Under the pieces are notes generated by a model. That model did no database searches. It was given only the letters and a program-made list of their open reading frames with translations, and was not told the origin of the DNA. This document shows, piece by piece, positions 1 through 41,362 of a stretch of 64,000 nucleotides of DNA. The position numbers were made by a program, and so were the translations under genes. This DNA comes from Candidatus Segetimicrobium genomatis (GTDB lineage: Bacteria; Sysuimicrobiota; Sysuimicrobiia; Sysuimicrobiales; Kaftiobacteriaceae), in assembly GCA_005888595.1 (NCBI GenBank), contig VBAL01000114.1:573-64572 (forward strand), in the 5' to 3' direction. Position 1 is the stretch's first letter. Every line of letters starts with the position of its first letter.

Positions 1-367
1 GAGAGATCTTATCGGCCAGGGCGACCAGCCTCTCCAGCTTGGCCTCTCCCAGGACGTTGTAGGTGAGGAGGATGTCGTCCAGCCCGCCTTCGGCCATGAC
101 TTCAGCCTCGCCGAGCTTCTGGCAGGTGATGCCCGCGGCGCCCGCGGCCACCTGCATGCGCGCGACGGCGGGTAGTTTGTGAGTTTTGATATGCGGCCGG
201 TTCCGCAGGCCGTGCAGGCTGAGATAGTTCTGCAACCGCGCGATGTTCTGTTCCATCACGGCGAGGTCGATCGTCACGGCTGGCGTATCAATCAGGTCCA
301 GTGACGTCCCAGCCTGCGCGGCGATTACGGGGCCCTCTTGAGCTGGCTGCGATGGTTGGACTGTCAT
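1..367 (-). CDS. PLP-dependent D-serine deaminase-like / alanine-racemase-N-domain (DSD1-type) protein, N-terminal portion; gene runs off window start
   Basis: Manual minus-strand translation from ATG 367-365: MTVQPSQPAQEGPVIAAQAGTSLDLIDTPAVTIDLAVMEQNIARLQNYLSLHGLRNRPHIKTHKLPAVARMQVAAGAAGITCQKLGEAEVMAEGGLDDILLTYNVLGEAKLERLVALADKIS. The RPHxKTHK motif is the PLP-lysine region of fold-type III D-serine dehydratase-like enzymes. ATGA overlap with the stop of the upstream TIM-barrel gene. Not in the supplied ORF track because no stop is in the window. Confidence 0.6.
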   Translation of the reverse strand, partial: MTVQPSQPAQEGPVIAAQAGTSLDLIDTPAVTIDLAVMEQNIARLQNYLSLHGLRNRPHIKTHKLPAVARMQVAAGAAGITCQKLGEAEVMAEGGLDDILLTYNVLGEAKLERLVALADKIS

Positions 368-1224
368 GGAGCCAGTCGCCGGACCAGCGATCGCAGGTGT
401 TCGGCCAGCCCGCGGGCGTGCGCGCGGAATAGATTGTATCGATACTCCGTGATCACCGAGCCCTGATAGCCGCGGAGCTCGGCGAAGGTTTCCTCGTACG
501 GGATCGCGCCCCATCCCACCGGCAGGTGCAGGTCGCCCCGACCCACAGGGAAAATATCCCGGGTGCGCTGTGTGCGATAGAGTGTGAAATTCTCCAGCCG
601 CAGGGGATCGTACCGCCCGAAGTTGTCGGTGACGTGCAGGTGGATCAGCGGCGAGCGAGCCGCCCGGACGGCCTCGAGATAGTCGAACCCGAAGTAGCGC
701 GCCGCGAGAAAGGCGTGCCCGACATCGAAGGTCAATCCGACGTTGGGCCGGTCCACCCGGCGCACGAAGTCGAGAACCGGAGCGAGGCGTTCCACCTCGA
801 TGTTCTCGATGCCGATGCGCAACCGCTGGTTCTGGGCGCGGTCCGCCAGGCGTCGCACCGAGTCCAGGAAGGCGGTTTCCACCGCCGCATCTGCGCTCTG
901 CTGCTCGAAGTGCAGCACCAGCACCTCGGCGTGGATCAACCGGCAGAACTCCACGACCGACTCCGCCATCTGCATCTGCAGGTCACGATCGCGAAGATCC
1001 CGCAGATCCAGCGCGGCCGGGCTATGCACCGAGTACCGAAACCCGTGACGTTCCAGGACCGGCACGACGTCGTTGACCAACGGGTACTGCAGGCGTCCAC
1101 AGAAGATGAGGTCGAAGCCATCCGGCGAGATCTCGACGGCGTCGTAGCCGAGGTCGTGCAGAAAGACAAGCTCATGCTGCAGATCGGATGTGGGGCTGAC
1201 GGCGATGCCGACCGGATTGGGCAT
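364..1224 (-). CDS. sugar phosphate isomerase/epimerase (xylose-isomerase-like TIM barrel)
   Basis: C-terminal 287 aa of ORF 364..1677 has the TIM-barrel family signature (DxVxLHxEQ, GIENIEV). The ORF's N-terminal 150 aa is low-complexity and overlaps the convergent SBP gene. Internal ATG at 1224-1222 (MPNPVGIAV...) gives a family-typical length. Confidence 0.75.
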   Translation of the reverse strand: MPNPVGIAVSPTSDLQHELVFLHDLGYDAVEISPDGFDLIFCGRLQYPLVNDVVPVLERHGFRYSVHSPAALDLRDLRDRDLQMQMAESVVEFCRLIHAEVLVLHFEQQSADAAVETAFLDSVRRLADRAQNQRLRIGIENIEVERLAPVLDFVRRVDRPNVGLTFDVGHAFLAARYFGFDYLEAVRAARSPLIHLHVTDNFGRYDPLRLENFTLYRTQRTRDIFPVGRGDLHLPVGWGAIPYEETFAELRGYQGSVITEYRYNLFRAHARGLAEHLRSLVRRLAP

Positions 1225-1395: not shown

Positions 1396-2541
1396 ATGAG
1401 GAAGCGGCTTCGCATTGTTCATTGGACCACCGTGCTCATCGCGGTGGTCTTTGTGTTTGCCCTGGGATGGTACGGCATCCCGGCCCGGGGGCAGATGGCG
1501 GGCGTTACGCTGTACATCAGCGGCGACACGAACATCCAGGAGATGTTCGATAAGGACCTGCTCCCGCTGTTCGAGCGGGAAACCAGCGTGAAGACCAAGA
1601 TGGTCTTCCTGGAGCACGGTCAGGGCGCCGAGGCCATTGTGGCCAAGATCATCGCCGCCAAGCGGACCGGTCAACAAACTGACGTCGACCTGTATGAGAC
1701 TCAGCCGACATTCATTGCAGCGGGCGCATCAGAGGGCATCTGGACGAAGATCACCAAGGACAACGTAGCGAACGCATCTAAGGTCGATTACAATCGGCCC
1801 GAGGTGCTCGTCTCGAACGGGTTCGGCATTCCCTACCGCGGATCGTCCGTGGTGCTCGCCTACAACTCGAAGTACGTCAAGACTCCTCCGCGCACGTATG
1901 ATGAGATTCTGGCCTGGATCAAGCAGAACCCCGGCAAGTTCACGTATTGCGATCCGCAGACGTGCGGATCAGGCGCCGCTTTCCTGTACGTGGCGCTGTA
2001 CAAGTACGCGAAGGCTGAGGACTTTTCCGGGCTAACCTACGACCAGGCCAAGACGGCGGCGTGGGAGCCTGCGCTGCAGCTCTTGCGCTCGCTCAAACCC
2101 AACATCTATAACAACGGCTTCTACCCCAACGGGAACGTGGCCGTCCTCCAGTTGCTCGGACGGGAGAACATCTACATGGCGCCGGTGTGGTCCGATCAGG
2201 GGGTAAGTTACCTCGATCAGGGCCTCCTGCCCAAGGACATCAAGCTCGTCCAGGTGACTCCGCCGTTTACGGGCGGCGACTCGGCCATTGCCATCCCGGT
2301 GCACGCCGAGCATCAGGCGTCCGGCCTGATGTTCTTGAACTGGCTGCTCACGTCCAAGGCCCAGACGATTGTTGTGAACAAGCTGGCGGGCTATCCGGGC
2401 ATCGACTGGAAGTACATGCCCAAGGACGTGCGGGACAAGTTCGCGGGGATCGCCCAGAATTTCAGCCCGCTGCCGAACGCGAAGTACCAGGCGGACGCGA
2501 AGCGGCTCTGGCAGGAGAAGGTGGCCGGCTCCGGCCAGTGA
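1396..2541 (+). CDS. ABC transporter periplasmic substrate-binding protein (PotD/family-1-like)
   Basis: ATG at 1396 preceded by AAGGGGGAGAGG RBS. Signal/TM segment MRKRLRIVHWTTVLIAVVFVFALGW. Followed directly by two permeases and a TOBE-containing ATPase. Paralogous to the SBP at 20103. Confidence 0.8.
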   Translation: MRKRLRIVHWTTVLIAVVFVFALGWYGIPARGQMAGVTLYISGDTNIQEMFDKDLLPLFERETSVKTKMVFLEHGQGAEAIVAKIIAAKRTGQQTDVDLYETQPTFIAAGASEGIWTKITKDNVANASKVDYNRPEVLVSNGFGIPYRGSSVVLAYNSKYVKTPPRTYDEILAWIKQNPGKFTYCDPQTCGSGAAFLYVALYKYAKAEDFSGLTYDQAKTAAWEPALQLLRSLKPNIYNNGFYPNGNVAVLQLLGRENIYMAPVWSDQGVSYLDQGLLPKDIKLVQVTPPFTGGDSAIAIPVHAEHQASGLMFLNWLLTSKAQTIVVNKLAGYPGIDWKYMPKDVRDKFAGIAQNFSPLPNAKYQADAKRLWQEKVAGSGQ

Positions 2542-2561
2542 GGTCGACGACTCGGGAGGGA

Positions 2562-3389
2562 GTGACCGGTCTCGCGCTGGTCCTCCCTCCGTTTTTCCTT
2601 CTCATCTTCTTCATTTTGGTCCCCGCCGCACAGGCGGTCCTGGAGACACTGCGCGTCGAGCGCAGCGGTCAGATCGTGTATTCTCTGGCCCGCTACGTGG
2701 AGATGTTCCACACCATCTCGCTGCGCCGCAGCGTGGGGTTCACCGTCATGGTGACGCTGGCCTCGGTGGCGGTCACCTTCGTGCTGGCCTACGCGCTCGC
2801 GTTATACCTGCGCTTCAGCCGGGGATGGGTGAGTACGCTGCTGGGGGCTCTGTTTATCATCCCCCTGTTCATTCCGACGGTCATCGCCTCGTTCGCCATG
2901 GTAACGTTTCTGGAGCACCACGGCTACATTGCCACCCTGCTGCACTACGTCGGCGTGGAGGACACGCCATCGCTGGTGTTCAACGCCACCGGCATCGTGC
3001 TCACCGAGGTCTGGGCGAGTATTCCTTTCGCGACGCTTGTGCTGCTGGCCGGGCTGCAGGGCATCGATGACGCGCTCATCGACAGCGCGCGCGACGTGGG
3101 CGCCGGGGCGCTGCGGACATTCCTGGCCGTCGTCCTGCCGCTCAACGCGGTGGCGACCATCATCACCATGAGTCTGCTCTTCATCGGCATCCTGGGCAGT
3201 TTCACCATTCCATATCTGGTCGGCGGGAACGCCCCGCAGATGATGAGCGTGGTGATGACCAACTACTTCACGAACTACCTGCGGCCGGATATCTCCGTCT
3301 CCCTGGCGGCACTGAGCTTTGTGATCGCCGGGCTGGCCGGGGCCGCCTACGTCGCCGGCGTCTCGCGCCGGGAGCGGGGTGCGGTGTGA
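2562..3389 (+). CDS. ABC transporter permease (PotB-like, binding-protein-dependent inner membrane component)
   Basis: Six predicted TM helices and the EAA-like loop DSARDVGAGALRTFLAVVLP. GTG at 2562 with GGGAGGGAG RBS, 20 nt after the SBP stop. The longer ORF start at 2187 overlaps the SBP gene. Confidence 0.75.
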   Translation: MTGLALVLPPFFLLIFFILVPAAQAVLETLRVERSGQIVYSLARYVEMFHTISLRRSVGFTVMVTLASVAVTFVLAYALALYLRFSRGWVSTLLGALFIIPLFIPTVIASFAMVTFLEHHGYIATLLHYVGVEDTPSLVFNATGIVLTEVWASIPFATLVLLAGLQGIDDALIDSARDVGAGALRTFLAVVLPLNAVATIITMSLLFIGILGSFTIPYLVGGNAPQMMSVVMTNYFTNYLRPDISVSLAALSFVIAGLAGAAYVAGVSRRERGAV

Positions 3390-4169
3390 GCGCCGTTGGC
3401 GAGGCGGTGCGCGAGCGTGTCGGCGGCCTGTTCTGGTTCTGGTCGGTGGGCGCGTTCCGGCGATCGCTGCCGGTGCTCTTCCTCCTTGGGCTGGCGGCAT
3501 TTATCCTCGGACCGCTGCTGAGCCTCATCCTCTGGGCCTTTGCGGGCCGGTGGTTCTACCCGGCGTTGCTGCCCCAGGAGTTCTCCGTGAAGTGGTGGGA
3601 CGTGGTCTTTGGAAATCGCAGCGTCGTGAATTCGATCAAATACAGCCTGATGACCGCCCCGACGGTCACGCTGCTGTCCGCGCTGATCTGCCTGCCGGCC
3701 GCCTACGCCTTCGCGCGCTTCCAGTTCCCCGGCCGGCGGTTTCTGCTGCTGTCCTTTCTCAGCGCCAACTCGTTTCCCAAGATCGGGCTCTACATCAGCA
3801 TCGCCACGCTCTTCTACCGCCTCCACCTGATGACGACGTTTTGGGGTGTGGTGCTGATCCAGTTGATGGGCACGCTGTTGTTCATGATCTGGATCCCCAC
3901 CGGGACGTTCCGGGGGATCAACCGCAGTCTGGAAGAAGCGGCGCGGGACGTGGGCGCCAGTGGCGCGCGCACCTTCTTTCAGATCACCCTCCCCATTGCC
4001 ATGCCCGGGCTGCTGGTTGCCGGACTGTTTGCCTTCCTGGCGGCGTTCGATGAAGCGCAGGGGACGTTGATCGTTCTCGATTCTGCTGACGCTGCCCTCG
4101 CTGGTGCTGCTGCTCCTGGCGCAGCGGTTGCTGCGGCAGGGCTACCTCGCCGCGGGCTACACGCTCTGA
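3386..4169 (+). pseudogene. ABC transporter permease (PotC-like) disrupted by an internal deletion/frameshift near 4078-4090; reads through into the ATPase gene
   Basis: GTG 3386 (GTGA overlap with upstream stop). Frame A is a canonical permease up to FDEAQGTLIV, then ~22 residues expected from the paralogue 23298..24143 (MPYVQTLPVLLWAYLGGRSSIFTY) are missing. The canonical C-terminus ILLTLPSLVLLLLAQRLLRQGYLAAGYTL* continues in the +1 frame, stop TGA 4167-4169. In frame A the ORF fuses to the ATPase (ORF 3386..5290, 634 aa). Confidence 0.65.
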
Positions 4170-4177
4170 GGCTGCCC

Positions 4178-5290
4178 ATGGCCGGCCTGCAGCTCGTCAA
4201 CCTCACCAAGCGCTTCGGGACGACGGCGGCGGTCTATGACTTCTCGCTGGATGTCCACGACGGCGAGTTGATGTGCCTGCTGGGGCCATCGGGGTGCGGA
4301 AAGACGACGACGCTGCGGATGATCGGCGGCTTCGCCACTCCCGACGGCGGCGACATCCTGATCGAGGGGCAGAGCGTCCTGGCGTTGCCGCCGGAGCGGC
4401 GCCCCACGGCGATGGTATTTCAGCGGTTCAATCTCTGGCCGCACATGACCGTGACGGACAACATCGCCTTCGGCCTGCGGCTCCGGCGCCTACCCGCGGC
4501 CGCGATCCATCGGAAGGTGGGAGAGACCCTCCAACTGGTCGGCCTCCCGCACGCGGCGCGCAAATGGCCGCACCAGCTCTCCGGAGGGGAGCAGCAGCGC
4601 ATCGCCGTGGCGCGGGCGCTGGTCCTGGAGCCGAAGATCCTGCTCCTGGACGAACCCTTCAGCAACCTCGACGCGCGGCTGCGCGTGCGGATGCGGGAAG
4701 AACTGAAGACGCTGCAACGCCAGGTCAGTATCACGACGGTCTTTGTCACGCACGATCAGGAAGAGGCGCTGACGCTCGCCGATCGGATCGCCGTGATGAA
4801 CAAGGGCGTCATGGAGCAGGTGGACACACCCGGGGCCCTCTATCGCCGGCCGCAAGGGCTGTTCGTGGCCGACTTCATGGGCACCATGAACTTCATTCGC
4901 GCGCGGTACCATCGCGATCGGGGCGCGCTGGCCGGCGGTCAGGTGGGCATCGCCGCCCGCGGTGACTGGCACGATGGCGCAGTGGTCACCGTGGCGTTCC
5001 GTCCGGAGGATGTGATGTTCGTCGATGGCGATGCGGGCATTCCCGTTCAGGTTCGTCGCGTCGTCAACCTCGGCCATTACCTGGAGGTCACCGTCGACGG
5101 CTCCGGGGTCGGGGCGATCAAGGTCTTCACGGATGGACAGCGACCGATGTCCGAGGGGCAGAGCCTGAACGTACACTTCAGGCGCATCCTGGTCTACGCG
5201 GAGGGCTTACCTCTCGCGGAGATCGAGATGCCCCGCCTGACGCACCTGCGCACTGCTGAGGAAGTGGTCGAGGGCTCGCCCAGCGTCTAG
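4178..5290 (+). CDS. ABC transporter ATP-binding protein with C-terminal TOBE domain (PotA/MalK/FbpC-like)
   Basis: Walker [11 protein letters not shown]-loop, signature LSGGEQQRIAVARAL, Walker B ILLLDEP, H-loop VTHD. C-terminal ~130 aa is a TOBE/MOP-like beta domain. ATG at 4178 (MAGLQLVNLTKRFG). Confidence 0.85.
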   Translation: MAGLQLVNLTKRFGTTAAVYDFSLDVHDGELMCLLGPSGCGKTTTLRMIGGFATPDGGDILIEGQSVLALPPERRPTAMVFQRFNLWPHMTVTDNIAFGLRLRRLPAAAIHRKVGETLQLVGLPHAARKWPHQLSGGEQQRIAVARALVLEPKILLLDEPFSNLDARLRVRMREELKTLQRQVSITTVFVTHDQEEALTLADRIAVMNKGVMEQVDTPGALYRRPQGLFVADFMGTMNFIRARYHRDRGALAGGQVGIAARGDWHDGAVVTVAFRPEDVMFVDGDAGIPVQVRRVVNLGHYLEVTVDGSGVGAIKVFTDGQRPMSEGQSLNVHFRRILVYAEGLPLAEIEMPRLTHLRTAEEVVEGSPSV

Positions 5291-5470
5291 AACCGTAGGG
5301 ACGTCCGATCACCTGCCCGAGGTGGTTCCGCACGAATCACGCTGAGTTTCCGCTGGTCGGTCAAATGGCTCGCTGCCCAGGTCGGGACAAAATCTGGTGT
5401 GTTTGGCGGAATGCGGGTACGTCAAACTTGGAATCGGGAGCCCTGGACTAGATCTGATGGCTTTCTATGC

Positions 5471-5761
5471 ATGGGGGTCCGGTACGTGACTTATCTGTAC
5501 GCCCTGGTGGTAATCTTACTGGTCGCTCTGCCAATCATCGTCGCGTTCGGATACGCTGCCAAAAGAGGGAAGTCTGCTCGGACAACTGCGTCTTTCGTTC
5601 TGCCGTACATTGCACTGCTCGCTTTGTCGTTTTTTTTGCTTGAAAAGCTCAGAGGGTTTGATCTCCTCGTTGCAACGGTAGTCGTTGTCGCGATTGGTAC
5701 GTTGGCATTCTATGTGTACGCGGAAATAGTCGACATTGGACTCCGAGGTCGCAAGAACTAA
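5471..5761 (+). CDS. small hypothetical membrane protein (~96 aa, 3 predicted TM helices) in low-GC island
   Basis: ORF 5399..5761; internal ATG 5471 (MGVRYVTYLYALVVILLVALPIIVAFGYAA...). GC ~50% versus ~67% in flanks. Uses TTA/AAA/AGA codons that are rare elsewhere in the window. Three hydrophobic helices. No recognisable family. Confidence 0.4.
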   Translation: MGVRYVTYLYALVVILLVALPIIVAFGYAAKRGKSARTTASFVLPYIALLALSFFLLEKLRGFDLLVATVVVVAIGTLAFYVYAEIVDIGLRGRKN

Positions 5762-6116
5762 CTAGGGTTCATCGGTGCCTGGCACCGATGAAGAAAAAAT
5801 AACTCGATTGGCATCAGGAGAATGACCCGGTTGGGTCATTGACGTCAACACCTACTCGTAGGGTTCATCGGTGCCTGTCACCGTCGATCCAGCGAGTCAT
5901 CGGTGTCAGGCACCGATGAAGCAAAAGGGGCTCGATTTGGCTATCGGAGAATGACCCGGCTAGGTCATTGTTGCAGGACCAGTCTGGTTGAGCCTATCCA
6001 GCGGCGCGATAACAGCGAGTGAGACTGTTCACGGTGCCAAGGCACCGATGAAGAAAAAATGGCTCGATTGGCTATAGGAGAATGACTCGATTGGGTCATT
6101 GACGCAAACACTTACT
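5762..6116. repeat. three tandem copies of a ~95-105-bp structured repeat (copy A 5762-5857, copy B 5858-~5976 with expanded stem-loop and divergent tail to ~6026, copy C ~6027-6116)
   Basis: Each unit has hairpin 1 TTCATCGGTGCC-N-GGCACCGATGAA (12-bp perfect arms; copy B arms ~20 bp with 13-nt loop), then GAAGAAAAAAT, then GGCTCGATTGG, then hairpin 2 AATGACCCGGTTGGGTCATT, then CAACACCTACTCG. Copy C overlaps the TAA stop of the TIM-barrel gene at 6112. Confidence 0.85.
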
Positions 6117-6939
6117 TGCGCACGATGCCGCGGAGATAGGCCAGGGCCCGCGGTACAGCCGTCGTCCCGGGCTCCTCGCCCTCGTACTCGACCGACACGT
6201 ACCCTTTGTATCCCGCCCCGCGCAGCAGCGCGATCGCGGCGTCGTGATCCACGCGCGCGTCGCGTCCATCGGGTAACACCTTGGTGAACTTGGCGTGGAC
6301 ATGCCACGCCAGCCGTGCGGTCCGCTCGATGCTGGCCTGGCCGTCGAGATAGTTCCCCGAATCCAGGAGCAGGCCCAGGGCCGGGCTCCCCACGGCTTCC
6401 AGGATCGCCAGTACGTCTGCCGCCGTCTGCACGAACCCGCGATGATTATGGTTTTCCATCACCAACTGCACCCCGAGCAGTTCGGCCTCCCCGCAGGCGG
6501 CGCGCAATGCCGCGATCATCGGGTGCCACCGCGCCGCGCGATCGCCTTCGGGCCATCCCGCAAAGGTCCGCAGGAAGCGTGTCCGCAACTGTTTCGAGAT
6601 GTCCATCCAGGCTACGGTCCGCAGCAGTTCCTCCTGACGTTGCGCGTCATCGGCCACTCCGAAGTCGTTCATGAAGGCGATGTTGACGATCTCCAATTTG
6701 TGGTGATCCGCCGCCTCGCGCAGCTCGGCAAGATGTTCCGGAGTCGGCGCGCCAATGTGTTTGTCCTCCAGCTCGACGGCCTTCAAACCGAGATCCTCGG
6801 CGCACAGGCGGAACCAGTCCACCAGGGTCAGCTGGCCGGCGTCAATTTCCTTTGCATACGACTCTGAACTGCAGGCGAGATCCACGGGCTCACTCCGTGC
6901 GAACGCGAGTGGGCAGGCCACCCGCGGCGATGCTGGCAT
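6112..6939 (-). CDS. sugar phosphate isomerase/epimerase (xylose-isomerase-like TIM barrel; IolE/IolI/MocC-like)
   Basis: 275-aa ORF with family motifs (VELEDKH, VMENHN, LDSGN, VHAKF). Start either ATG 6939 (50-nt overlap with upstream gene) or GTG 6885 (4 nt after the upstream stop). Confidence 0.8.
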   Translation of the reverse strand: MPASPRVACPLAFARSEPVDLACSSESYAKEIDAGQLTLVDWFRLCAEDLGLKAVELEDKHIGAPTPEHLAELREAADHHKLEIVNIAFMNDFGVADDAQRQEELLRTVAWMDISKQLRTRFLRTFAGWPEGDRAARWHPMIAALRAACGEAELLGVQLVMENHNHRGFVQTAADVLAILEAVGSPALGLLLDSGNYLDGQASIERTARLAWHVHAKFTKVLPDGRDARVDHDAAIALLRGAGYKGYVSVEYEGEEPGTTAVPRALAYLRGIVRK

Positions 6940-7873: not shown

Positions 7874-9027
7874 GGGTCGATGACGACCTTCATCGAGTCG
7901 GGCGCGATGGACTTCCGGACGGCGGCGTCCACGTCGCCGAGGCGGTAGCGGTGCGACACGAACTCGCGTACCGGGTAGTGCTGCATGTACCGCACCAGCT
8001 GGCGCATGCTCGGTCCATACGCGGCGGCCTCTTCGCCGCCGACGCCGATGATCCGCACGCTCTTCGAGCACAAATGCCGGTGCGGGTTGATCTGCACCGG
8101 GCCCAGGTCAGAGAAGTTGCCGGCCTCGACCAGCATGCCGCCCAGGCGGAGCATTTCGATCGCTTCGGGAATGACCTGCGGCACGCCCGCGCATTCGACG
8201 ACCACATCCGCGCCGCGGCCGTGGGTCAGGTCGCGGATCGCCTGGAGGCGCTCCGCCGGCGCGGTCGTCGAGGCGTCGATGGCGGCGTCGGCGCCGAGCC
8301 GCTGCGCCATGGCGAGCCGGTACGCGGAGAGATCGACCGCCACGATCGTGCCGGCGCCGAGCATGCGGGCTTTCATCAGGAAGCACATGCCCAGTGATCC
8401 GACGCCAAGCACCACGACGGTGTCGTCGAACCGGAACGCCTCGTTGGGAACGGCGGAAAACTGTTTCGCCCGATCCAATCCCACCGCGACGGCCATGACC
8501 TCCGTCAGGACGGCCACTTCGTCCGGGAGGTCGTCGGGCACGCGCACCAGGAAGCTGCCGGGCACCACGTACAGGTATTCCGACCAGCCGCCGAAGAGGT
8601 GCGGCGGCGCGGCCGCAGTCATGTTGTTCCCGTAATCCACCATGCGTTCGCAAAAGTAGTAGGGAAAGTCGTGCCGGCAGTAATAACACTCGCCGCAGAT
8701 GACGTTGGCTCCCACGACCACCCGGTCACCCACGCGCAGCGGGACGCCCTCGAAATCGGTATACGCCCGCTCGCCCCCGATGGCGGCGACCGTCCCCACG
8801 TTCTCGTGCCCCTGAATGATCGGGAAGGGAATCTCCTTGGGCGCACCCGTCCCGGCGTATTGGGTGGTGTACCCCTGATAGGTGTGCTTGTCGGTTCCGC
8901 AGATTCCGGAGAGACGCATCCGGACCAGGGCGCACCCCGGCGCCGGATCCGGCAGCGGGTACTCGCGGATCTCATACCGCCCGGGTGCGACCAGCGTCGC
9001 CGCCCGCGCGTGTGCTGCCCCCATCAT
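7864..9027 (-). CDS. zinc-dependent alcohol/polyol dehydrogenase (MDR family, sorbitol/threonine-dehydrogenase-like)
   Basis: Catalytic Zn ligands (CGTDKH, GHE), structural Zn Cys cluster CGECYYC...C, NAD Rossmann GVGSLG. Confidence 0.85.
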   Translation of the reverse strand: MMGAAHARAATLVAPGRYEIREYPLPDPAPGCALVRMRLSGICGTDKHTYQGYTTQYAGTGAPKEIPFPIIQGHENVGTVAAIGGERAYTDFEGVPLRVGDRVVVGANVICGECYYCRHDFPYYFCERMVDYGNNMTAAAPPHLFGGWSEYLYVVPGSFLVRVPDDLPDEVAVLTEVMAVAVGLDRAKQFSAVPNEAFRFDDTVVVLGVGSLGMCFLMKARMLGAGTIVAVDLSAYRLAMAQRLGADAAIDASTTAPAERLQAIRDLTHGRGADVVVECAGVPQVIPEAIEMLRLGGMLVEAGNFSDLGPVQINPHRHLCSKSVRIIGVGGEEAAAYGPSMRQLVRYMQHYPVREFVSHRYRLGDVDAAVRKSIAPDSMKVVIDPWA

Positions 9028-9069
9028 GCGCTCCTCCCGCGTCCCGAACGTGCCGCCATTCGTCGAGCG

Positions 9070-10182
9070 CTACCCGAAGATCCAGTCCTGCAGTTCGACG
9101 CCCATCCCCGGCGCCTGCGGGAGCCGCACCATCCCGTCCGCGATGGCCAGCGGCTCCCGCAGCGTCTGCTGATACGTCGACGATGGAAACGCCGGCGGGT
9201 CATGCGGGAACTCGAAGAACGTCGTGTTCGAGATCGAGGCGGCGAGGTGGAGATTCGCCACCATCCCCAATGGATCGCCCCAGGTGTGCGGTGTGAGCAG
9301 GACTCCTGCGGCGTGGGCCATCGTGGCCAGCGCTTTCGTGCGCAGCAATCCCTCACACAGCGTCACGTCCGGCTGCAGAATATCGTAGCAACCGTCGAGC
9401 AGCAGCCGCTGCAGCTCGTCGAACCGCTGGTTGACCTCCCCGCCGGCGATGGCCACCGGCGAGGCCGCATGGAGCCGCTGGAGTTCCGCGTAGGCGTGGC
9501 GCGGCAGCGGCTCTTCCAGCCAGCCGACGCCGTAATCAGCCAGCGCCCGTGCGGTCCCCAGCGCCCGGTGATAGGTCCAGTGCGGCCCCGGAAGGGGCGC
9601 GTCGGCGGTGTCGGTCTGATTGGCGTCCACCATGATCGCCATCTGGTCGCCCACCGCCTTGCGCACGGCTGCCACCTGCGCAACGTCTTCGGCCAGGGTC
9701 TCGTTGTGAATGCGGAGCTTGATGGCGCGGAAGCCCTGGTCGCGCAGCCGCCGGGCGTCGTCGGCCCGCTGGGCCGGGGTGCGATTCTGCCCTGTGGACG
9801 CATAGACCGGCACCGCATCGCTGACGTTCCCCAGCAGCTTATACACCGGCAGCCCGGCGATCTTCCCCAGGATATCCCACAGCGCCAGTTCCACGAACCA
9901 GACCGCAGTGCCGAAATAGGGCCAGAGGTACCGCAGCGTGCCGGTGTGCTTTTCGATTCGCAGCGGATCTTCACCGGTCAGGTACGTCGCGATGCGTGCC
10001 ACGGCCTGCTCTTCGGCACCATAGAACTCGTGGCCGGCGATGCCGTAGACACCGGCGTCGGTGTCAATCCGAACGTAAGCCACCCGGATCTGCGTCTCCA
10101 CCCGTCCCGGCGCCCACGCGGGATAGAAGGGGGCCGGCAGCGGGATGTCGACCTGGCGGGTCCGGATGCGTGTGATCTGCAT
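9070..10182 (-). CDS. enolase-superfamily enzyme (mandelate racemase / muconate lactonizing enzyme family; probable sugar-acid dehydratase)
   Basis: 370 aa. MR/MLE N-terminal capping domain and barrel with metal-ligand pattern (KLRIH, VDANQ, EEP). Operon context with sugar transporters. Confidence 0.75.
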   Translation of the reverse strand: MQITRIRTRQVDIPLPAPFYPAWAPGRVETQIRVAYVRIDTDAGVYGIAGHEFYGAEEQAVARIATYLTGEDPLRIEKHTGTLRYLWPYFGTAVWFVELALWDILGKIAGLPVYKLLGNVSDAVPVYASTGQNRTPAQRADDARRLRDQGFRAIKLRIHNETLAEDVAQVAAVRKAVGDQMAIMVDANQTDTADAPLPGPHWTYHRALGTARALADYGVGWLEEPLPRHAYAELQRLHAASPVAIAGGEVNQRFDELQRLLLDGCYDILQPDVTLCEGLLRTKALATMAHAAGVLLTPHTWGDPLGMVANLHLAASISNTTFFEFPHDPPAFPSSTYQQTLREPLAIADGMVRLPQAPGMGVELQDWIFG

Positions 10183-10233
10183 GCACGTCTCCGAGAGGGA
10201 GCCGGGAGGTGGCGCCGCCTCCCGGCCGCGACC

Positions 10234-11511
10234 TCATTTCATATAGCCGATGTCCGTCAACGCGGTCACCGCCGATGCGATGGCGTCCTTGTCCGACGCA
10301 CCCTGCACGGCCTTGGCAAACATGTTGGGGATCACATAGGTCTGATACGCTTTCTCGGCCAGGGCGCTGGGCGGCGCGGGATAGGCCACCAGGTGCGCGT
10401 TCCGCATGAACCCCACCAGCAGCCGCAGGTTCGGATCCGGGGCGTAGGGCGGGTTCTGGTCGAAGTGGGGCAGCACCGGCATGTCGTAGCCGCTGCCCAG
10501 CGTCAGCGCGGTCTTCTGACTGGCCTCGGTGAACATGGATCGCAGGAACTGTTTGGCCAGATCGATGTTGGGGCTGAACTTGAACACGCCCCAGCCGTGG
10601 ATGTCGGCGTAGAAGAAGCGGCCCTTCGGTCCCGACGGCGCCAGGGTGTGCCGCACCGACGGGGCGAACGGCATCTTCTCCCGGTGGGCCCGCAGGTAGA
10701 TGCTGGGCGCGTTGATGGTGTACGACCCGCGGCCGGACAGCATGTGCTTGTTGTTGCCGGAATCGTCCCAGGACAGCACGGTGGCGTCCATCTGGGAGAA
10801 GAGCTTGCGGACGTAGCTCAGCGCGGCGCGCGTCTGGGGCGAGTCCAGCGTGAGCTTGGCCTTCGCGTCGGCCACGGAGGCGCCGAACGACCACAGCAAG
10901 GGAAAGAGAATGGAGTTGGCATCTTCACACTGGCTGATCGGCAGCCCCACCGGGTGCCCCGCCTTCTTGAGTTTCCCGGCGGCGCGCAGCAAGTCGTCCC
11001 AGGTGGCCGGCGGCTGTTCGCCCACCTGGCCGAAGTAGTCGGCGCGGTACACGCCCAGCGTCCCGTTGCCGATCCAGGGCAACGCCAGCCAGTGGCCGTC
11101 CACGTACCCGGAGTCCTTCGCCACCTGATAGAAATTCCCGAACTGCTTGGAGATGTCGGCGACCACGTCGTCCAACGGGACGAGGTAGTCCTTGTGAATC
11201 GTGGGCAGGTTGTCTTGCAAGTCGATGATGTCGTGTCCTGATCGAGCCTGCTCTTCGGCGGTGAGCTTCGCCGCGACCTCGGGCTGGTCGATAAAATCTC
11301 CGGCAAACGCGGCGCTGTGCTGCGCGGCGAAGTCATTCCCGATCTTGGCGATGGCCTTGTCGCTGTCTTCGTTGAACGCGGAATGTCCCAGCAGCCGGAG
11401 CGTGGTCGACGGTCCCGCCGCGACCCGGTGAGGCCAGCGCAGCGTCCCGGCGGCCACCGCCAGTCCGGCCCCCCCTGCGGCCTTGAGAAACCCCCTGCGG
11501 GTAATCTTCAT
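10234..11511 (-). CDS. carbohydrate ABC transporter substrate-binding protein (CUT1, family 1) with TAT signal
   Basis: ATG 11511 preceded by GGAGGGGTGGGA RBS. MKITRRGFLKAAGGAGLAVAAG twin-arginine signal. Extracellular solute-binding family-1 fold. Confidence 0.8.
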   Translation of the reverse strand: MKITRRGFLKAAGGAGLAVAAGTLRWPHRVAAGPSTTLRLLGHSAFNEDSDKAIAKIGNDFAAQHSAAFAGDFIDQPEVAAKLTAEEQARSGHDIIDLQDNLPTIHKDYLVPLDDVVADISKQFGNFYQVAKDSGYVDGHWLALPWIGNGTLGVYRADYFGQVGEQPPATWDDLLRAAGKLKKAGHPVGLPISQCEDANSILFPLLWSFGASVADAKAKLTLDSPQTRAALSYVRKLFSQMDATVLSWDDSGNNKHMLSGRGSYTINAPSIYLRAHREKMPFAPSVRHTLAPSGPKGRFFYADIHGWGVFKFSPNIDLAKQFLRSMFTEASQKTALTLGSGYDMPVLPHFDQNPPYAPDPNLRLLVGFMRNAHLVAYPAPPSALAEKAYQTYVIPNMFAKAVQGASDKDAIASAVTALTDIGYMK

Positions 11512-11585
11512 TCCCACCCCTCCATCGTCAGTCTGATGTGCGTTCCGGTCCCGCCCGCGCACGGCGCTTCGCGCCGCTCACCTCC

Positions 11586-12428
11586 TCATCCTCTGACGGC
11601 GCCGGCGGTGAGGCCGGCCACGTAGTGATCCAAGAAGAGCGAGAACAGCACGACCACGGGCAGCGAAGCCACCAGCGCGCCGCCCATCAACGATCCCCAG
11701 TAGAAGAAGTCCCCGCGGATCAGATCGACGACGACGCCGGTGGTCACGGTCTTGAGGTCGGTGGTGGAGATGAACGTCAGCGAGTAGATGAACTCGCTGT
11801 AGGCCAGCGTGAACCCGAAGAGCGCGGCGGTGATGATCCCCGGCCGCGCCAGGGGCAGCACCACGTGCCGCAATGCCCCCGCGCGGGTGCACCCGTCGAC
11901 GAGCGCGCTCTCCTCCACGTCCCGCGGGATCGTGGTGAAGTACGCGGTGAGCATCCAGGTGGCGAACGGCACCATGAACGCCGGATAGGTGACGATCAGG
12001 GACCACAGCGTGTTGGACAGGTGGAATAGGGCCATCAAACGCGCCAGCGGCAGGAAGAGCAGCGTGGTCGGCACCAGGTACACGATGAAGACGAAGGTCG
12101 TCGTGGCCTCGGCCAGCGGGAACCGCAGGCGCGCCAGGGCGTACGCCGCCAGCACGGCCAGCACCACGGAGACGACCGTTGTGGTCGCCGCGACCACGGT
12201 TGAATTGCGCAGCCACAGCGGGAAGGCCGTGTGCGTGAACAGGAAGTGGTAATGCTCCCAGGTGATGCCGGCGCGGACCAGGAAGGGATTCTGCGCCAGA
12301 TCGTAGAGTTCGACGTCTTGCTTCAGCGACGCCACAAGCATCCAGATGAACGGGAAGACGGCGAAGATCACAAACGGCGCCGCCGTGAGGTAGGCGATCG
12401 CGACCCGCCGCCGCGATGACCTCACCAT
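11586..12428 (-). CDS. carbohydrate ABC transporter permease (MalG-like)
   Basis: 6 TM helices. EAA loop DGCTRAGALRHVVLPLARPG. 7-nt overlap with upstream permease. Confidence 0.85.
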   Translation of the reverse strand: MVRSSRRRVAIAYLTAAPFVIFAVFPFIWMLVASLKQDVELYDLAQNPFLVRAGITWEHYHFLFTHTAFPLWLRNSTVVAATTTVVSVVLAVLAAYALARLRFPLAEATTTFVFIVYLVPTTLLFLPLARLMALFHLSNTLWSLIVTYPAFMVPFATWMLTAYFTTIPRDVEESALVDGCTRAGALRHVVLPLARPGIITAALFGFTLAYSEFIYSLTFISTTDLKTVTTGVVVDLIRGDFFYWGSLMGGALVASLPVVVLFSLFLDHYVAGLTAGAVRG

Positions 12429-19638: not shown

Positions 19639-20102
19639 CTGGATGTCTCCTCCGGGGTATGTTGCGCGTTGCCTTCGCCAGCAGGATTGCGACTCCTGCC
19701 CTAATCGCCGCATGCGCCGCGCGAAGGGGTTTGCAACCGGCGCCGTCCCGTGCAGGTGGAGGACCTCCGCCGCGGGCCGTTGAACCACAGAGGACTTGAC
19801 TCTCTCCCCCCTGGGCGAATACAGGTCACGACTCTTTCGAGCGGCACTGATGAAGTGCGGCTCGGGCGCGGCATTTTGCAGGACTCGACTCTGAGAGGGC
19901 GCGGCAGCGCCAACTGTTTTCCCTTTCGCGGTGGCCGGAGCCCTTCGACTCGCTTCGCTCGCTCAGGGCGCTCGACTCGTCGGAAGGGCGGAGGCCGCGA
20001 GCGAAGTCCGCGGAGCGGACGAGTCGAGCGGGAGAGGGACAAAGGGTGAGAGGGTACATACACTCAGCCGGAGACCGGTGACTCACAAGGGAGGAATGCG
20101 TA
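19639..20102. promoter_or_regulatory. 464-bp divergent intergenic control region between the catabolic cluster (minus) and the PotD-like operon (plus); contains nested inverted repeats
   Basis: GCGCTCGACTCGTC (19968-19981) pairs with GACGAGTCGAGCG (20020-20032), 13 bp perfect. Inner pair CTTCGCTCGC/GCGAGCGAAG (10/10 bp). CGACTCG also present around 19870 and 19945. No regulator gene in either operon. Confidence 0.45.
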
Positions 20103-24143: not shown

Positions 24144-24881
24144 TGGAGCTGCTTGCCAGTCGGGCCGGCCGGCCGCTGATCTCGGCCCACCGAGGATTCG
24201 CCGCCGCGGCGCCGGAGAACACGCTGGCGGCGCTGGACCTCGCCTGGCGCGCCGGCGCCACTGTGGCTGAGATCGATGTGCAGTTGACCCGCGACGGCCG
24301 CGTCGTCCTGATGCACGACCGCTCGGTGACGCGGACGACCAACGGCTCCGGGCTCGTGCGGGACCTCACGTTTCGAGAGCTCAAAGCCCTGGATGCCGGC
24401 GCATGGTTCGGAGCGCGTGCCGGCGCTGGCAGAAGTCTTGGACTGGAGCCGCGGCCGACTGGGGTTCCTCATTGAGTTGAAGAACTACCCGCACCGGGAG
24501 ATGCCGCTGGTCGAGAAGACGATTGCCGAGATCGAGGCGCACGGCGCCCAAGACTACGTCGTGCCGGCCGGCTTCGACCACGTCACCCTGGCCGAGATTC
24601 ACCGTATCCGCCCGCATTGGCCGCTGGAAATGATCTACATCGCGCGTCTCGCCGACCCGGTCCACGCGGCGCGGGCCGCCGGGGCCGCCCTCATCTCGCT
24701 GGAGCCGGAGTTCTGCCTGGAGCCCGATGTGAAGGCGATGCATGCCGCCGGACTTTCGGTGCTCACCACCCTGCTGGACGGAGAGCACGCCCAAGAACTT
24801 CTGGGGATCGGCGTGGACGTCTTCGAGTCCGATGATGTGGCAATGGTGGCGTCGGCCCTGGGAGTCGCGCCGAGGGTCTAA
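24143..24881 (+). pseudogene. glycerophosphodiester phosphodiesterase (GDPD) family gene with a 1-nt frameshift near 24408-24415
   Basis: N-terminal part MELLASRAGRPLISAHRGFAAAAPENTLAALDLAWRAGATVAEIDVQLTRDGRVVLMHD (GDPD HR(G) motif) is in the frame of ORF 23336..24475. From ERVPALAEVLDW onward the conserved sequence continues in ORF 24393..24881. Could be a sequencing error. Confidence 0.6.
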
Positions 24882-25670
24882 CCTGCCTGCGGGCTGAGCG
24901 TCGTGCGCAGCGCCGCGACCGACTCGCGCACGTAACGGTCGAGCACCGCGCCCCAGGGGACCTGCGACGAACCGCCTGGGAGCGTGGCCTCGGGTGGAGC
25001 AATCTCCAGAACTACGGCGCCCGAGTATCCGATCTCACGCAGCGCCACGGTGATCGGGAACAGATCAAGGTGACCCCCGCGCAGCCCCCGCCTGTTTGAA
25101 TCGGCGACGTGCACGTGCCACAGCCATGAGCCCGCGGCGCGGATGGCCGCCGGGATGTCGGGCTCTTCGATGTTGGCGTGGAAGAGATCCAGGGTCATAC
25201 CCACCTGGGGTGAGCCCACGTCACGCAGGTAGGCCAGGGCCTGTGCCGTGGTTGTCACCAGGTAGGCCTCATAACGGTTGAGCGGCTCGATGGCGATCCG
25301 ACCATCGCCATTCCTGCTCCCGGGTGCTAATCGGCGCGAGGCGCGACTCGCCTGAGGGCAACATCTGTACAACCGGCGCGCCGATGGCGGCGGCGAACCG
25401 CAGGCAGCCGACCAGATAGGCGACCGCCTCTGCCCGGATGGCGGGATCGGGATGGGCCAGGTCACGCCGCGTCTGTGGGACCTTGCACGAGGCGGTCAGG
25501 GCTACGGGGGCCAGGCCGGTTCGGGCGAGGAGACGGCGCACCGCATCGGGGGTCCACATCTCCGGCTCGCCCAGGAGTTCCACGCCATCGCAGCCGGCTG
25601 CGGCGATGCGCGCCAGCGCCTCCTCCAGCGGGGCCTCGTAGATCCAGGTGCATGCGCCGAGTCGCAACAC
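24878..25670 (-). pseudogene. sugar phosphate isomerase/epimerase (TIM barrel) with a frameshift near 25300-25325
   Basis: N-terminal half (VLRLGACTWIYEAPLEEALARIAAAGCDGVELLGEPE...) is in ORF 25269..25940, with GTG 25670 eight nt after the upstream stop. C-terminal half (GRIAIEPLNRYEAY...WHVHVADSNRRGLRGGHLD...VVLEI) is in ORF 24878..25465. The two frames meet in GGGAGCAGGAATGGCGATGG. Confidence 0.6.
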
Positions 25671-25678
25671 GGCAGCGC

Positions 25679-27602: not shown

Positions 27603-29181
27603 ATGTTTATGCGCGCCGTTGTGGCGCTTGGAGCTGCTGCAGCGCTGGCGGTCCTCGTCGCCGGCGGCCCGACGACGTCTGCCGCGAACGGCTGGGCTGG
27701 CAGCGTAGCCTTTACCAACCAGGTGGCCAGTTCGCCGAGCAGCGGCGGCGGCTACCCGGTTCCGCCCGGTTCGCGGGTGCCGGTCGCAGGGACGTGCGGC
27801 GCTGGGCCGTTCAATGCCAACTATTCGGAGTCGTGGATCGCCGTCGAGCCGGGTACGGAAGACCTTGTCGGCAGCTCGAAGTTTTTCTTTGATAAGTACA
27901 GCACGTTCTACATGTTCTACCTCGGCGCCCACCAGATCTTTAACGGCGCCCCGGCCGGCAACAATCAGATCCAGGGCTACGATTGCCTCTCCGCCGTGCC
28001 GGGCACGATCACCCAGGACATGCCGCCGAGCTGGACCGATACCACCGATCCCAACGCCGACTTTGATACACAGGGCCGCGTATACCAGACGATGCTGCCG
28101 TTCCGTCACTGGGTCAGGGGCAACGGCGGCCAGGCGCTCGAGGCGACGAACAACGCCTCGGCCAAGCAGGCCGGTCATGTGGAAGATAAGCAGTGGATCG
28201 CCGTAAACCACATCCCCGGACACCCATTTCAGGATCACGTCTACGCGGCGTGGGCGGTCTTCAACGGCAGCTCAAATGGCCAGGGGATCAAAGTTCGCCT
28301 CGCGGTCTCGCGGGACCGCGGCCAGACCTTTGATAAGGCTGTGACGATTAGCCCCCCTTCGCAGGTCGGCCCGGCCGCCACCTTCGTCTACCCGTCGATC
28401 GACGCCGCCGGGACTCTCTACGTGGCGTTCGTCTCCTTCCCGCCCAATGGCTCGGCCTCGACCATCTACGTCGCCCGCTCAACCGATGACGGCATCTCCT
28501 TTACGCCGTTCGTCCCTGTGACCATCGTGAACATCATCACCACCGCGACCGGAGGTCTGCCGAACACGAGGTTCCGCGATCACCTATGAGGACTGGGACG
28601 GCACGCAGATGGACGTGAAGTTTACGCAGTCCGCCGACGGCGGTGTGACCTGGACGACGCCGGTTGTGGTCAACGACAACGTGGACGCGCCAACGACGCC
28701 CACCGATCAGTTTCAGCCGACGGTCGCCGCCGGGCCGGCAGGGGCGGTCGCGATCACCTTCTACGATCGGCGTAAGGCCTGCCCGAGCGACGCCAGTGTG
28801 TTGGCAGCGGACGTGGGGCGAACGAACTTTTGCATCGACGTGTCACTGCAGGCTTACAAGGATAACGGCATCGCCGCAGGCGCAGTCCCAGTTGGCCACA
28901 ACGCGAGGATCACGAAGTTCACCTGGGATCCGGAGCAGCCGGGACAGCACCTCGGCGGCCTGTCCCAATACCCCTGCGCCGGGGCGCGTGATCCGTGTCC
29001 GGACGGCCGCGGTTTCATCGGCGACTACTTCGGGCTGGCGATCTCAGCCGGCAATATCTATGCGCTGTTCGTCTCGACGCACTACCCGTCGAACGTGACA
29101 GCGGACGAGGGCGTGCGTGTGTATTATCAACAACAGGTACTGGCGACGGTGAAACGGGCGGACGTGGGATCAGGTTACTAG
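27603..29181 (+). CDS. secreted BNR/Asp-box repeat protein (sialidase/glycoside-hydrolase-like beta-propeller); reading frame interrupted near 28570-28580
   Basis: Signal peptide MFMRAVVALGAAAALAVLVAGG. Asp-box motifs SRDRGQTF, STDDGISF, SADGGVTW. ORF 27603..28589 ends ...TRFRDHL* while the +1 frame continues AITYEDWDGTQMDVKF... into ORF 28609..29181. Either a single gene with a 1-nt indel or a sequencing error. Confidence 0.6.
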
Positions 29182-41269: not shown

Positions 41270-41362
41270 GGAATTTCGGATTGCGGATTTCGAATTGCGG
41301 ATTTGAACGGCCGGGGATTTCAATCCGCAATCCACAATCCGCAATCCGAAATCGGGAGTGCG
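41270..41362. promoter_or_regulatory. large imperfect hairpin built from ATTGCGGATT-type repeats between fdrA stop and the DUF1116 gene start
   Basis: Left arm ATTTCGGATTGCGGATTTCGAATTGCGGATTT (41274-41305), loop TGAACGGCCGGGG, right arm ATTTCAATCCGCAATCCACAATCCGCAATCCGAAAT (41319-41353). Followed by GGGAGTG RBS and ATG 41365. Confidence 0.7.

What the first reader, a model, noticed from the sequence alone, without database searches (positions are those of the whole stretch)
3386..5290. Internal deletion fuses a PotC-like permease in-frame to the downstream ATPase (634-aa chimeric ORF)
Relative to the intact paralogue (23298-24143), ~22 residues spanning a TM segment are missing after FDEAQGTLIV. 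The canonical permease C-terminus (ILLTLPSLVLLLLAQRLL...GYTL*) is readable only in the +1 frame, and the permease stop is bypassed so the ORF runs into the NBD. Either the first transporter operon is decaying (pseudogene) while the paralogous operon at 20-24 kb remains intact, or an assembly/sequencing deletion is present.
Basis: seen in the sequence. Interest (0 to 1): 0.55.

Follow-up and report, generated by a model that had tools for sequence, protein, structure and literature searches.

The report
Assembly gap fakes a permease–ATPase fusion
The 634-residue "fusion" of a transporter membrane subunit to its ATPase exists only because 80 bases are missing from this one metagenome-assembled scaffold, most likely through an assembly error, so the organism almost certainly has two ordinary separate genes.

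Summary
ORF 3386-5290 (634 aa) joins a PotC-like ABC permease to the downstream ATPase, and the normal permease C-terminus and its stop (TGA 4167-4169) are readable only in the +1 frame.

The cause is an exact 80-nt gap at 4073/4074.

Every relative examined has a separate 287-aa permease and 370-aa ATPase. This includes two independent soil-metagenome contigs (L112, L113). Both match the window base for base for 290 nt upstream and 235-261 nt downstream of the junction, and both carry the 80 nt.

The window has four more blunt gaps of the same kind, with 0-1 nt microhomology:
- 17 nt after 24410
- 50 nt after 25297
- 72 nt after 28103
- 53 nt after 28579

These break three further genes that are intact in near-identical contigs. 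dN/dS in the operon is 0.02-0.07, so there is no sign of decay.

The source is an IDBA-UD-assembled MAG (Bacillati bacterium ANGP1). Its fused ORF is deposited as protein TMJ00486.1.

Probabilities:
- local assembly or scaffolding artefact, about 0.85
- a real, very recent strain-specific deletion giving a pseudogene, about 0.12
- a functional fusion, about 0.02

Low interest. It is useful mainly as a database-quality warning.

The parts
1396..2541 (+). Solute-binding protein of the operon (381 aa)
   Evidence: Pfam SBP_bac_8/SBP_bac_1. The exact protein occurs on 9 other contigs.
2538..3389 (+). First permease (PotB-like, 283 aa), intact
   Evidence: Pfam BPD_transp_1, profile 4-180/184. Same gene call in L083/L109.
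3386..5290 (+). The 634-aa fused ORF as deposited (NCBI TMJ00486.1)
   Evidence: 100% identical to P0243.
3386..4073 (+). Second permease (PotC-like), residues 1-230, in its proper frame
   Evidence: One residue different from the intact 287-aa proteins P0241/P0247/P0253. Alignments stop at ...TLIV.
4073..4075 (.). Junction where 80 nt are missing (1-nt ambiguity, T at 4074)
   Evidence: DNA alignments with L001, L002, L003, L005, L006, L083, L088, L112 and L113.
4074..4169 (+). Permease C-terminal remnant (last hydrophobic segment plus tail, FSILLTLPSLV...GYTL, stop TGA 4167-4169). It sits in the +1 frame relative to 3386. In the fused ORF it is read as the Ala-rich linker LDSADAALAGAAAPGAAVAAAGLPRRGLHALRLP.
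   Evidence: All substitutions versus L083 are synonymous in the original frame (3 syn, 0 nonsyn) and non-synonymous in the fused frame (0 syn, 4 nonsyn).
4168..4171 (+). GAGG ribosome-binding-like site 6 nt upstream of the ATPase ATG
   Evidence: Read directly from the sequence. Its function is inferred.
4178..5290 (+). ABC ATPase (370 aa) with its own start; ABC_tran plus TOBE_2
   Evidence: Pfam. 98% identical to the stand-alone 370-aa P0121. dN/dS 0.065 versus L083.
24410..24411 (.). Second blunt gap: 17 nt missing inside the GDPD gene (24143-24881, +)
   Evidence: Compared with L089, L090, L092 and L093. The Pfam GDPD match is cut at 74/244 in the window and covers 1-242/244 in L089.
25297..25298 (.). 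Third blunt gap: 50 nt missing inside the AP_endonuc_2 gene (24878-25670, -)
   Evidence: Compared with L089 and L090. The Pfam domain is split at profile position 99 between two overlapping ORFs and is intact in L089.
28103..28104 (.). Fourth blunt gap: 72 nt (in frame) missing from the BNR-like gene that starts at 27603 (+)
   Evidence: Compared with L089, whose flanks are 99.2-99.8% identical.
28579..28580 (.). Fifth blunt gap: 53 nt missing from the same BNR-like gene. The ORF ends at 28589.
   Evidence: Compared with L089, whose flanks are 99.8-100% identical. L089's ORF is continuous.

Best explanation
The fused ORF is most likely a local assembly or scaffolding error in a metagenome-assembled scaffold, not a feature of the organism. 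In the real genome the locus would be an ordinary four-gene type I ABC importer operon: binding protein, two permeases, and an ATPase with a TOBE domain. The second permease would be 287 aa and end at TGA 4167-4169. The ATPase would be 370 aa and start at ATG 4178.

During assembly or automated curation, 80 nt were lost at 4073/4074. The source pipeline was IDBA-UD scaffolds followed by scripted repair of scaffolding errors. Because 80 = 3n+2, the gene caller reads through the shifted C-terminal codons, misses the permease stop and runs into the in-frame ATPase.

Shown here:
- the exact gap
- its absence from every other assembly, including two with the window's own haplotype
- the recurrence of the same kind of gap elsewhere in the scaffold

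Inferred, not shown: the route of loss. Two contigs may have been joined with a mis-estimated gap, or an unresolved stretch may have been dropped.
For: 1. L112 and L113 come from two different JGI metagenomes. They are 100% identical to the window for 290 nt upstream and 235-261 nt downstream of the junction, and they contain the 80 nt, giving an intact 287-aa permease.
2. All other relatives have separate 287-aa and 370-aa genes: L001-L003, L005, L006, L083, L088, L109-L111 and proteins P0001-P0042.
3. The window has four more gaps relative to 98-100% identical contigs: 17, 50, 72 and 53 nt at 24410, 25297, 28103 and 28579. All five gaps have 0-1 nt microhomology. Four of the five shift the frame. 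Together they break GDPD, AP_endonuc_2 and a BNR-like gene, all intact in the comparators.
4. In the coding regions compared with near-identical (98-100%) contigs, every length difference of 17 nt or more is the window lacking sequence. The missing pieces are nowhere else in the window.
5. At 24410 the window changes from a non-L089 haplotype (8 SNPs in the preceding ~170 nt) to an L089-identical one for the next ~490 nt. This is what a join of two contigs would give.
6. Strong purifying selection: dN/dS is 0.024 for the permease and 0.065 for the ATPase. The C-terminal remnant has 3 synonymous and 0 non-synonymous changes in the original frame.
7. The 634-aa product is on record from one contig only (TMJ00486.1). 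Among the 120 best matches to it, the only other fusion is an unrelated singleton, P0255.
8. Source pipeline. Samples were assembled with IDBA-UD and 'scaffolding errors ... corrected as previously described' (PMC6784897). [quoted passage not shown] 9. ENA metagenome scaffolds carrying the same genes (L095, L107) hold N-gaps of 70-172 nt. Their sample names (CRIT18-1_SAMN089028xx) suggest, but do not show, that they come from the same project. The MAG contigs examined hold none.
Against: - No reads were available, so absence of read support is not shown.
- The deposited bins had already been through an error-detection step that should flag junctions without stringently mapped reads. That argues that some reads may support the junction.
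- No gaps of this kind were found in 8134-12626 or 35279-57094, so the errors, if errors, are clustered.
- Contigs nearest to the window's strain over longer stretches (L086, L084, L094) end 150-380 nt before the gap sites. A real strain-specific deletion creating branches in assembly graphs would also produce this.
- The 72-nt and 53-nt gaps rest on one comparator only (L089).
Confidence: 0.85

Rival explanations
1. A real, very recent 80-nt deletion in one strain of the population. It truncates the second permease after its fifth membrane segment and creates a pseudogene. The transporter would be dead unless another permease substitutes. The ATPase could still be made from its own GAGG-ATG start at 4168-4180.
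For: The sequence as deposited carries the deletion. The bin had passed a read-based error check. The soil population is a mosaic of many closely related strains with real indel polymorphism, for example intergenic 72-106-nt differences at 41275-41346 and 19924-20029 that are shared by several assemblies. Paralogous transporters exist in the window.
Against: The identical haplotype is intact in two other assemblies. No other assembly shows the junction (a search of limited power; see the full report). A real origin would need five independent blunt deletions in about 16 kb, inactivating 4 of roughly 16 genes, in a lineage 99-100% identical to intact relatives and under strong purifying selection. 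None of the five has the short direct repeats typical of slippage deletions.
Confidence: 0.12
2. A functional new architecture: a type I importer whose second membrane subunit is covalently fused to the ATPase. The frameshifted Ala-rich stretch would act as a replacement sixth membrane helix, followed by a positively charged cytoplasmic linker.
For: The fusion is in frame and the ATPase part is complete. The linker AALAGAAAPGAAVAAAGL is mildly hydrophobic and is followed by RR.
Against: The hydropathy of the linker peaks at 1.43. The five retained membrane-segment peaks reach 1.8-2.6 and the native sixth segment reaches 2.5. Without a sixth helix the ATPase would be left on the wrong side of the membrane; this rests on the topology of homologous solved structures, recalled rather than computed here. 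The periplasmic loop that is lost is conserved in all orthologues. There are no conserved fused homologues. Substitutions in the linker region follow the old frame. The BPD_transp_1 score falls below the Pfam cut-off.
Confidence: 0.02
3. The comparators carry insertions and the window shows the ancestral state.
For: None beyond the formal symmetry of an indel.
Against: The extra segments restore the reading frame and full Pfam domain coverage: BPD_transp_1 5-179/184, GDPD 1-242/244 and AP_endonuc_2 1-237/249. The 80-nt segment is also present in distant relatives at 76-87% nucleotide identity.
Confidence: 0.01

Closest known systems
Local assembly / scaffolding errors in short-read metagenome assemblies (IDBA-UD scaffolds; Chen et al. 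2020, PMC7111523; Anantharaman et al. 2016, PMC5079060)
   Same: A short region at a contig join is wrong. It is private to one assembly. It produces an incorrect protein-coding gene that has entered public databases. Several such sites occur in one scaffold. The source study used this assembler and a scripted repair step.
   Different: The published descriptions stress unsupported sequence, spurious Ns or wrong repeat numbers. Here the symptom is clean loss of 17-80 nt with no Ns left. The exact step that removed the bases is not identified.
PotABCD spermidine/putrescine importer of E. coli (PotC, PDB 8y5f chain C)
   Same: The same kind of machine: a periplasmic binding protein, two BPD_transp_1 permeases, and one ATPase with a C-terminal regulatory or TOBE-like domain. 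PotC is the best NCBIfam match of the intact permease, and PotC is among the best PDB matches (E = 9.5e-18).
   Different: The score of 97 bits is far below the PotC equivalog cut-off of 326. SugB (8ja7_B) and MalG match equally well. The gene order differs from the order I recall for potABCD: here it is binding protein, permease, permease, ATPase. The substrate is unknown.
Naturally fused membrane-domain/ATPase ABC half-transporters (for example the MsbA/Sav1866 type)
   Same: The order is membrane domain first and ATPase second, in one polypeptide.
   Different: From my own knowledge: those are exporter folds with a complete six-helix membrane domain ending in the cytoplasm. Here the fold is a type I importer permease that has lost its last helix, and no conserved fused relatives exist.
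Frameshift pseudogenes in decaying genomes
   Same: An out-of-frame internal deletion in a gene that has a paralogue.
   Different: There is no elevated dN/dS and no second lesion in the operon. The lesion is not shared with any relative, and the identical haplotype is intact elsewhere.

Membership tests
Type I ABC importer permease (Pfam BPD_transp_1, PF00528) | Whole-protein score above the Pfam gathering cut-off, with the profile covered to its C-terminal end | tested here: not met
   The fused ORF scores 24.8 bits against a cut-off of 26.4 and covers profile 6-132/184. The intact form of the same gene (L083) scores 33.1 bits and covers 5-179/184. The gene belongs to the family; the deposited ORF is a truncated copy.
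Type I ABC importer permease (Pfam BPD_transp_1, PF00528) | Cytoplasmic EAA loop (EAA...G...I.LP) that docks the ATPase | tested here: met
   EEAARDVGASGARTFFQITLPIAMPG at residues 183-208 of the ORF, read from the translation. The motif definition is from established knowledge.
Type I ABC importer permease (Pfam BPD_transp_1, PF00528) | A final (sixth) membrane helix that returns the chain to the cytoplasm | tested here: not met
   Kyte-Doolittle peak of 2.5 at residues 260-268 in the intact protein. The fused ORF has no peak above 1.43 after residue 215. The helix is still encoded at 4074-4166 in the +1 frame.
PotC (spermidine/putrescine permease, NCBIfam NF007047 equivalog) | Score above the equivalog cut-off | tested here: not met
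   97.2 bits against a cut-off of 326 for the intact orthologue. 'PotC-like' describes resemblance only.
ABC transporter ATPase (PF00005) with TOBE_2 | ABC_tran domain with Walker A, signature and Walker B motifs, plus a C-terminal TOBE domain | tested here: met
   ABC_tran 116 bits and TOBE_2 23.4 bits. [17 protein letters not shown] and ILLLDEP are present in the translation.
Natural permease-ATPase fusion family | Fused homologues conserved across genomes | tested here: not met
   Of the 120 best matches to the 634-aa query, 119 are 354-399 aa and match only the ATPase half. The single fusion, P0255 (508 aa, 53% identity), is a singleton from one contig. The 634-aa protein itself is on record from one contig.
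Pseudogene through gene decay | Relaxed selection or multiple lesions in the gene or operon, or a lesion shared by related genomes | tested here: not met
   dN/dS 0.024 and 0.065. There is a single lesion, and it is absent from all 11 loci that span the site.
Assembly artefact | Lesion private to one assembly and absent from independent assemblies of the same haplotype | tested here: met
   L112 and L113 are identical on both flanks and carry the 80 nt.
Assembly artefact | The same type of lesion recurs in the same scaffold | tested here: met
   Five blunt gaps of 17-80 nt, each with 0-1 nt microhomology.
Assembly artefact | No reads support the junction | not testable with these tools
   Raw reads (PRJNA449266) cannot be accessed here.

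The most novel reading that the evidence does not exclude
The 80-nt deletion is real in one soil strain. The resulting single polypeptide would be a working importer subunit in which a frameshift-born Ala-rich segment replaces the sixth membrane helix and tethers the ATPase to its permease. That would be a one-step birth of a fused half-transporter from a type I importer.
Probability: 0.02. Interest if true: 0.5.

Novelty: not a real feature. Interest (0 to 1): 0.1.

Why it matters
Biologically it is ordinary: the operon is a standard binding-protein-dependent ABC importer.

It matters as a data-quality case.
- The chimeric 634-aa ORF is in NCBI and UniRef as a genuine 'ATP-binding cassette domain-containing protein' (TMJ00486.1 / UniRef100_A0A537KXK9).
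- In the 90%-identity protein clustering it pulls 287-aa permeases and 370-aa ATPases into one cluster.
- At least four genes in this 64-kb window are broken in the same way.
- Pseudogene counts, gene-fusion calls and metabolic reconstructions for this candidate-phylum MAG, and probably for its sister bins, should therefore not be taken at face value.

Tried and rejected
- **Exact look-ups of the window's own products.** The fused ORF, the stand-alone ATPase and P0243 all returned 'not on record'. The source contig could not be fetched. It was identified only through cluster membership.
- **Junction 30-mer and a window-specific 44-mer in metagenome contigs.** Both gave 0 hits. The second negative is uninformative: L112 and L113 contain that 44-mer and were still not found, so that collection does not hold all JGI contigs. 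The negative for the junction is weak for the same reason.
- **Is 4074 a strain-switch (chimera) point?** Divergence from L083/L003 begins around 3700, not at the junction, and L083 is itself a mosaic. There is no clear switch at this site, but there is one at 24410.
- **Could the missing pieces have been moved elsewhere in the window?** Only chance 11-16-mers were found.
- **Other overlapping same-strand ORF pairs as further frame breaks** (11586/12422, 14209/14982, 33301/33710, 51268/52149/53291, 37367/38199). All are normal neighbouring genes with complete domains.
- **A 14-nt difference in scaffold L102 at 51176-51189.** It lies in a more divergent strain, is flanked by a CGG repeat and is near a gene end. 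It could be real, so it was not used as evidence.
- **Look-ups for 37376-38236 and 13363-14208** found nothing.
- **Rfam on the repeat region 5250-6150.** Only sub-threshold hairpin hits to animal miRNA families.
Full report
**What is in the sequence**

The window holds a four-gene ABC importer operon on the + strand:
- a binding protein (1396-2541)
- a first permease (2538-3389)
- a 634-aa ORF (3386-5290)

The ORF starts as a second permease and ends as an ATPase. Pfam finds the permease domain only up to profile position 132 of 184, below the family cut-off. A complete ABC_tran domain and a TOBE_2 domain follow.

Reading the +1 frame from 4074 gives FSILLTLPSLVLLLLAQRLLRQGYLAAGYTL and a stop at 4167-4169. 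Nine bases further on, the ATPase ATG (4178) follows a GAGG.

**What exactly is missing**

Orthologous permeases are 287 aa and are followed by a separate 370-aa ATPase. DNA alignments with nine loci show that the window lacks exactly 80 nt between ...GTTGATCG and (T)TCTCGATT....

The lost peptide is GSPNYITMPVMMYTLVLNYPQPVGAV. In alignments to solved relatives (SugB 8ja7_B, PotC 8y5f_C, MalG 2r6g_G) it falls between the fifth and sixth hydrophobic segments.

The sixth segment is still encoded, but it is read out of frame as an Ala-rich linker. The linker's hydropathy peaks at 1.43, against 2.5 for the native segment.

**Where the window comes from**

The fused protein is 100% identical to NCBI TMJ00486.1 (P0243). 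It sits on a 66,354-nt contig of a MAG named Bacillati bacterium ANGP1 / Candidatus Segetimicrobium genomatis. Related MAG contigs carry sample names of the Angelo grassland study.

I did not see the window's own record title. The link to that study rests on the shared organism name and on contig titles of sister bins. That study assembled each sample with IDBA-UD and corrected scaffolding errors by script (PMC6784897).

The correction procedure detects regions without stringently mapped reads, reassembles them, and otherwise replaces them with Ns or breaks the scaffold. [quoted passage not shown] **Is the fusion a conserved architecture?**

No. A search with the whole 634-aa protein returns 119 proteins of 354-399 aa that match only the ATPase half. 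It returns one unrelated singleton fusion, P0255 (508 aa, 53% identity). The deposited fusion is on record from one contig only, and it has drawn permeases and ATPases into one 90% cluster.

**Artefact or real deletion?**

Four lines of evidence point to an artefact.

1. *The same haplotype is intact elsewhere.* Two contigs from different JGI metagenomes are base-for-base identical to the window for 290 nt before and 235-261 nt after the junction, and they contain the 80 nt. They are L112 (Ga0066703_10210651) and L113 (Ga0209806_1109525). Three 287-aa proteins differ from the window's permease at a single residue outside the gap.

2. *The gap is one of five.* Compared with 98-100% identical contigs, the window also lacks:
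   - 17 nt after 24410, where the GDPD gene is cut at Pfam position 74/244
   - 50 nt after 25297, where AP_endonuc_2 is split at position 99 into two overlapping ORFs
   - 72 nt after 28103 and 53 nt after 28579, both in a BNR-like gene

. All five have 0-1 nt of microhomology. Four of the five shift the frame. In the coding regions compared with near-identical (98-100%) contigs, every length difference of 17 nt or more is the window lacking sequence. The missing pieces are nowhere else in the window. At 24410 the haplotype relationship to L089 changes exactly at the junction.

3. *The operon shows no decay.* dN/dS versus L083 is 0.024 for the permease part and 0.065 for the ATPase. The three substitutions in the C-terminal remnant are all synonymous in the old frame. 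Five independent gene-breaking deletions in about 16 kb of a lineage that is 99-100% identical to intact relatives and under such constraint is not a credible biological history.

4. *Gaps are routine in related raw scaffolds.* ENA metagenome scaffolds carrying the same genes (L095, L107) contain N-gaps of 70-172 nt, while the MAG contigs examined contain none. Their sample names (CRIT18-1_SAMN089028xx) suggest the same project, but I did not verify this. Gaps of this size are therefore routinely present before curation.

How the bases were lost is my inference. Either two contigs were joined with a wrong gap estimate, or an unresolved stretch was dropped.

**What speaks for a real deletion**

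- I could not see reads.
- The bins had already passed a read-based check.
- The gaps are clustered (4.07 kb and 24.4-28.6 kb). None was found in 8134-12626 or 35279-57094.
- Contigs closest to the window's strain tend to end a few hundred bases before the gap sites.
- The population does have genuine indel polymorphism in intergenic regions.

I therefore leave about 0.12 for a real, very recent strain variant. In that case the permease would be a pseudogene lacking its last helix. The ATPase could still be translated from its own start, and the importer would be inactive.

A functional fusion gets about 0.02. The linker is not convincingly membrane-spanning, a conserved loop is lost, and nothing has evolved in the new frame.

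**Comparison with known systems**

The operon works like a PotABCD/MalFGK2-type type I importer. It is not a PotC equivalog (97 bits against a cut-off of 326), and its substrate is unknown. The feature flagged is best filed under known local assembly errors of short-read metagenome scaffolds, not under gene fusions or pseudogenes.

**Verdict**

- Observation: confirmed.
- Interpretation: partly supported. The 'assembly deletion' alternative is the likely one; the 'decaying operon' alternative is not supported.
- Novelty: not a real feature.
- Interest: low. The value lies in flagging TMJ00486.1 and at least three other broken genes in this scaffold as probable artefacts.

Noticed in passing
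window 5291-6118: A low-GC (49-55% against ~65%) segment of about 825 nt lies between the ATPase stop and the convergent AP_endonuc_2 gene. It is absent from L001, L002, L003 and L083. L109 matches the window again from 5897 on, so it shares at least the repeat part, 5897-6118. The segment holds a 120-aa ORF (5399-5761) with hydrophobic stretches and no Pfam match. It also holds three copies of a ~130-nt unit, each with two hairpins (CATCGGTGCC..GGCACCGATG and GAATGACCCGG..GGGTCATT). There is no Rfam family and no copies elsewhere in the window. It looks like a variable intergenic repeat or a small mobile insertion.
   Followed up: partly
window 24410, 25297, 28103, 28579: Four further blunt gaps (17, 50, 72 and 53 nt) relative to near-identical contigs break the GDPD, AP_endonuc_2 and BNR-like genes. 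The ORFs 24143-24475 / 24393-24881, 24878-25465 / 25269-25940 and 27603-28589 / 28531-29181 are fragments of single genes.
   Followed up: yes
window 49328-49449: This lies in the intergenic region upstream of the carboxyltransferase gene (49463-51238). Five 9-nt tandem repeats (CAGTCTNCN) face five inverted copies (GTAGACTGN) across a 38-nt spacer, 83% complementary over 40 nt. Just downstream (49425-49525) the population shows two sharply different haplotypes. It is possibly a regulator-binding array.
   Followed up: no
window 19924-20029 and 41275-41346: Intergenic indel polymorphisms shared by several independent assemblies. A ~106-nt stretch with an imperfect 24-nt inverted repeat upstream of the second operon's binding-protein gene is present in the window and L091 and absent in L089 and L092. 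A 72-nt stretch between the AllF-like and AllG-like genes is present in the window, L095, L096 and L099 and absent in L097, L098 and L101. These look like genuine strain variation, unlike the coding gaps.
   Followed up: partly
protein cluster of P0121: The 90%-identity cluster represented by the 370-aa ATPase P0121 also contains many 287-aa permeases (for example P0245, found on 118 contigs). The chimeric 634-aa ORF bridges the two families.
   Followed up: yes
P0255 (ENA contig of 23,920 nt): Another singleton permease-ATPase fusion: 508 aa, BPD_transp_1 5-169/184 followed by ABC_tran, with no TOBE domain. It is 53% identical to the window's ORF. It is possibly another read-through or assembly product.
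   Followed up: no
L001 1068-6920 versus window 324-368: The related MAG contig VBAI01000034 carries about 5.8 kb between sequences that are adjacent in the window. The extra stretch holds an Opp-like peptide transporter and two M19 peptidases. This is a gene-content difference between close relatives.
   Followed up: no
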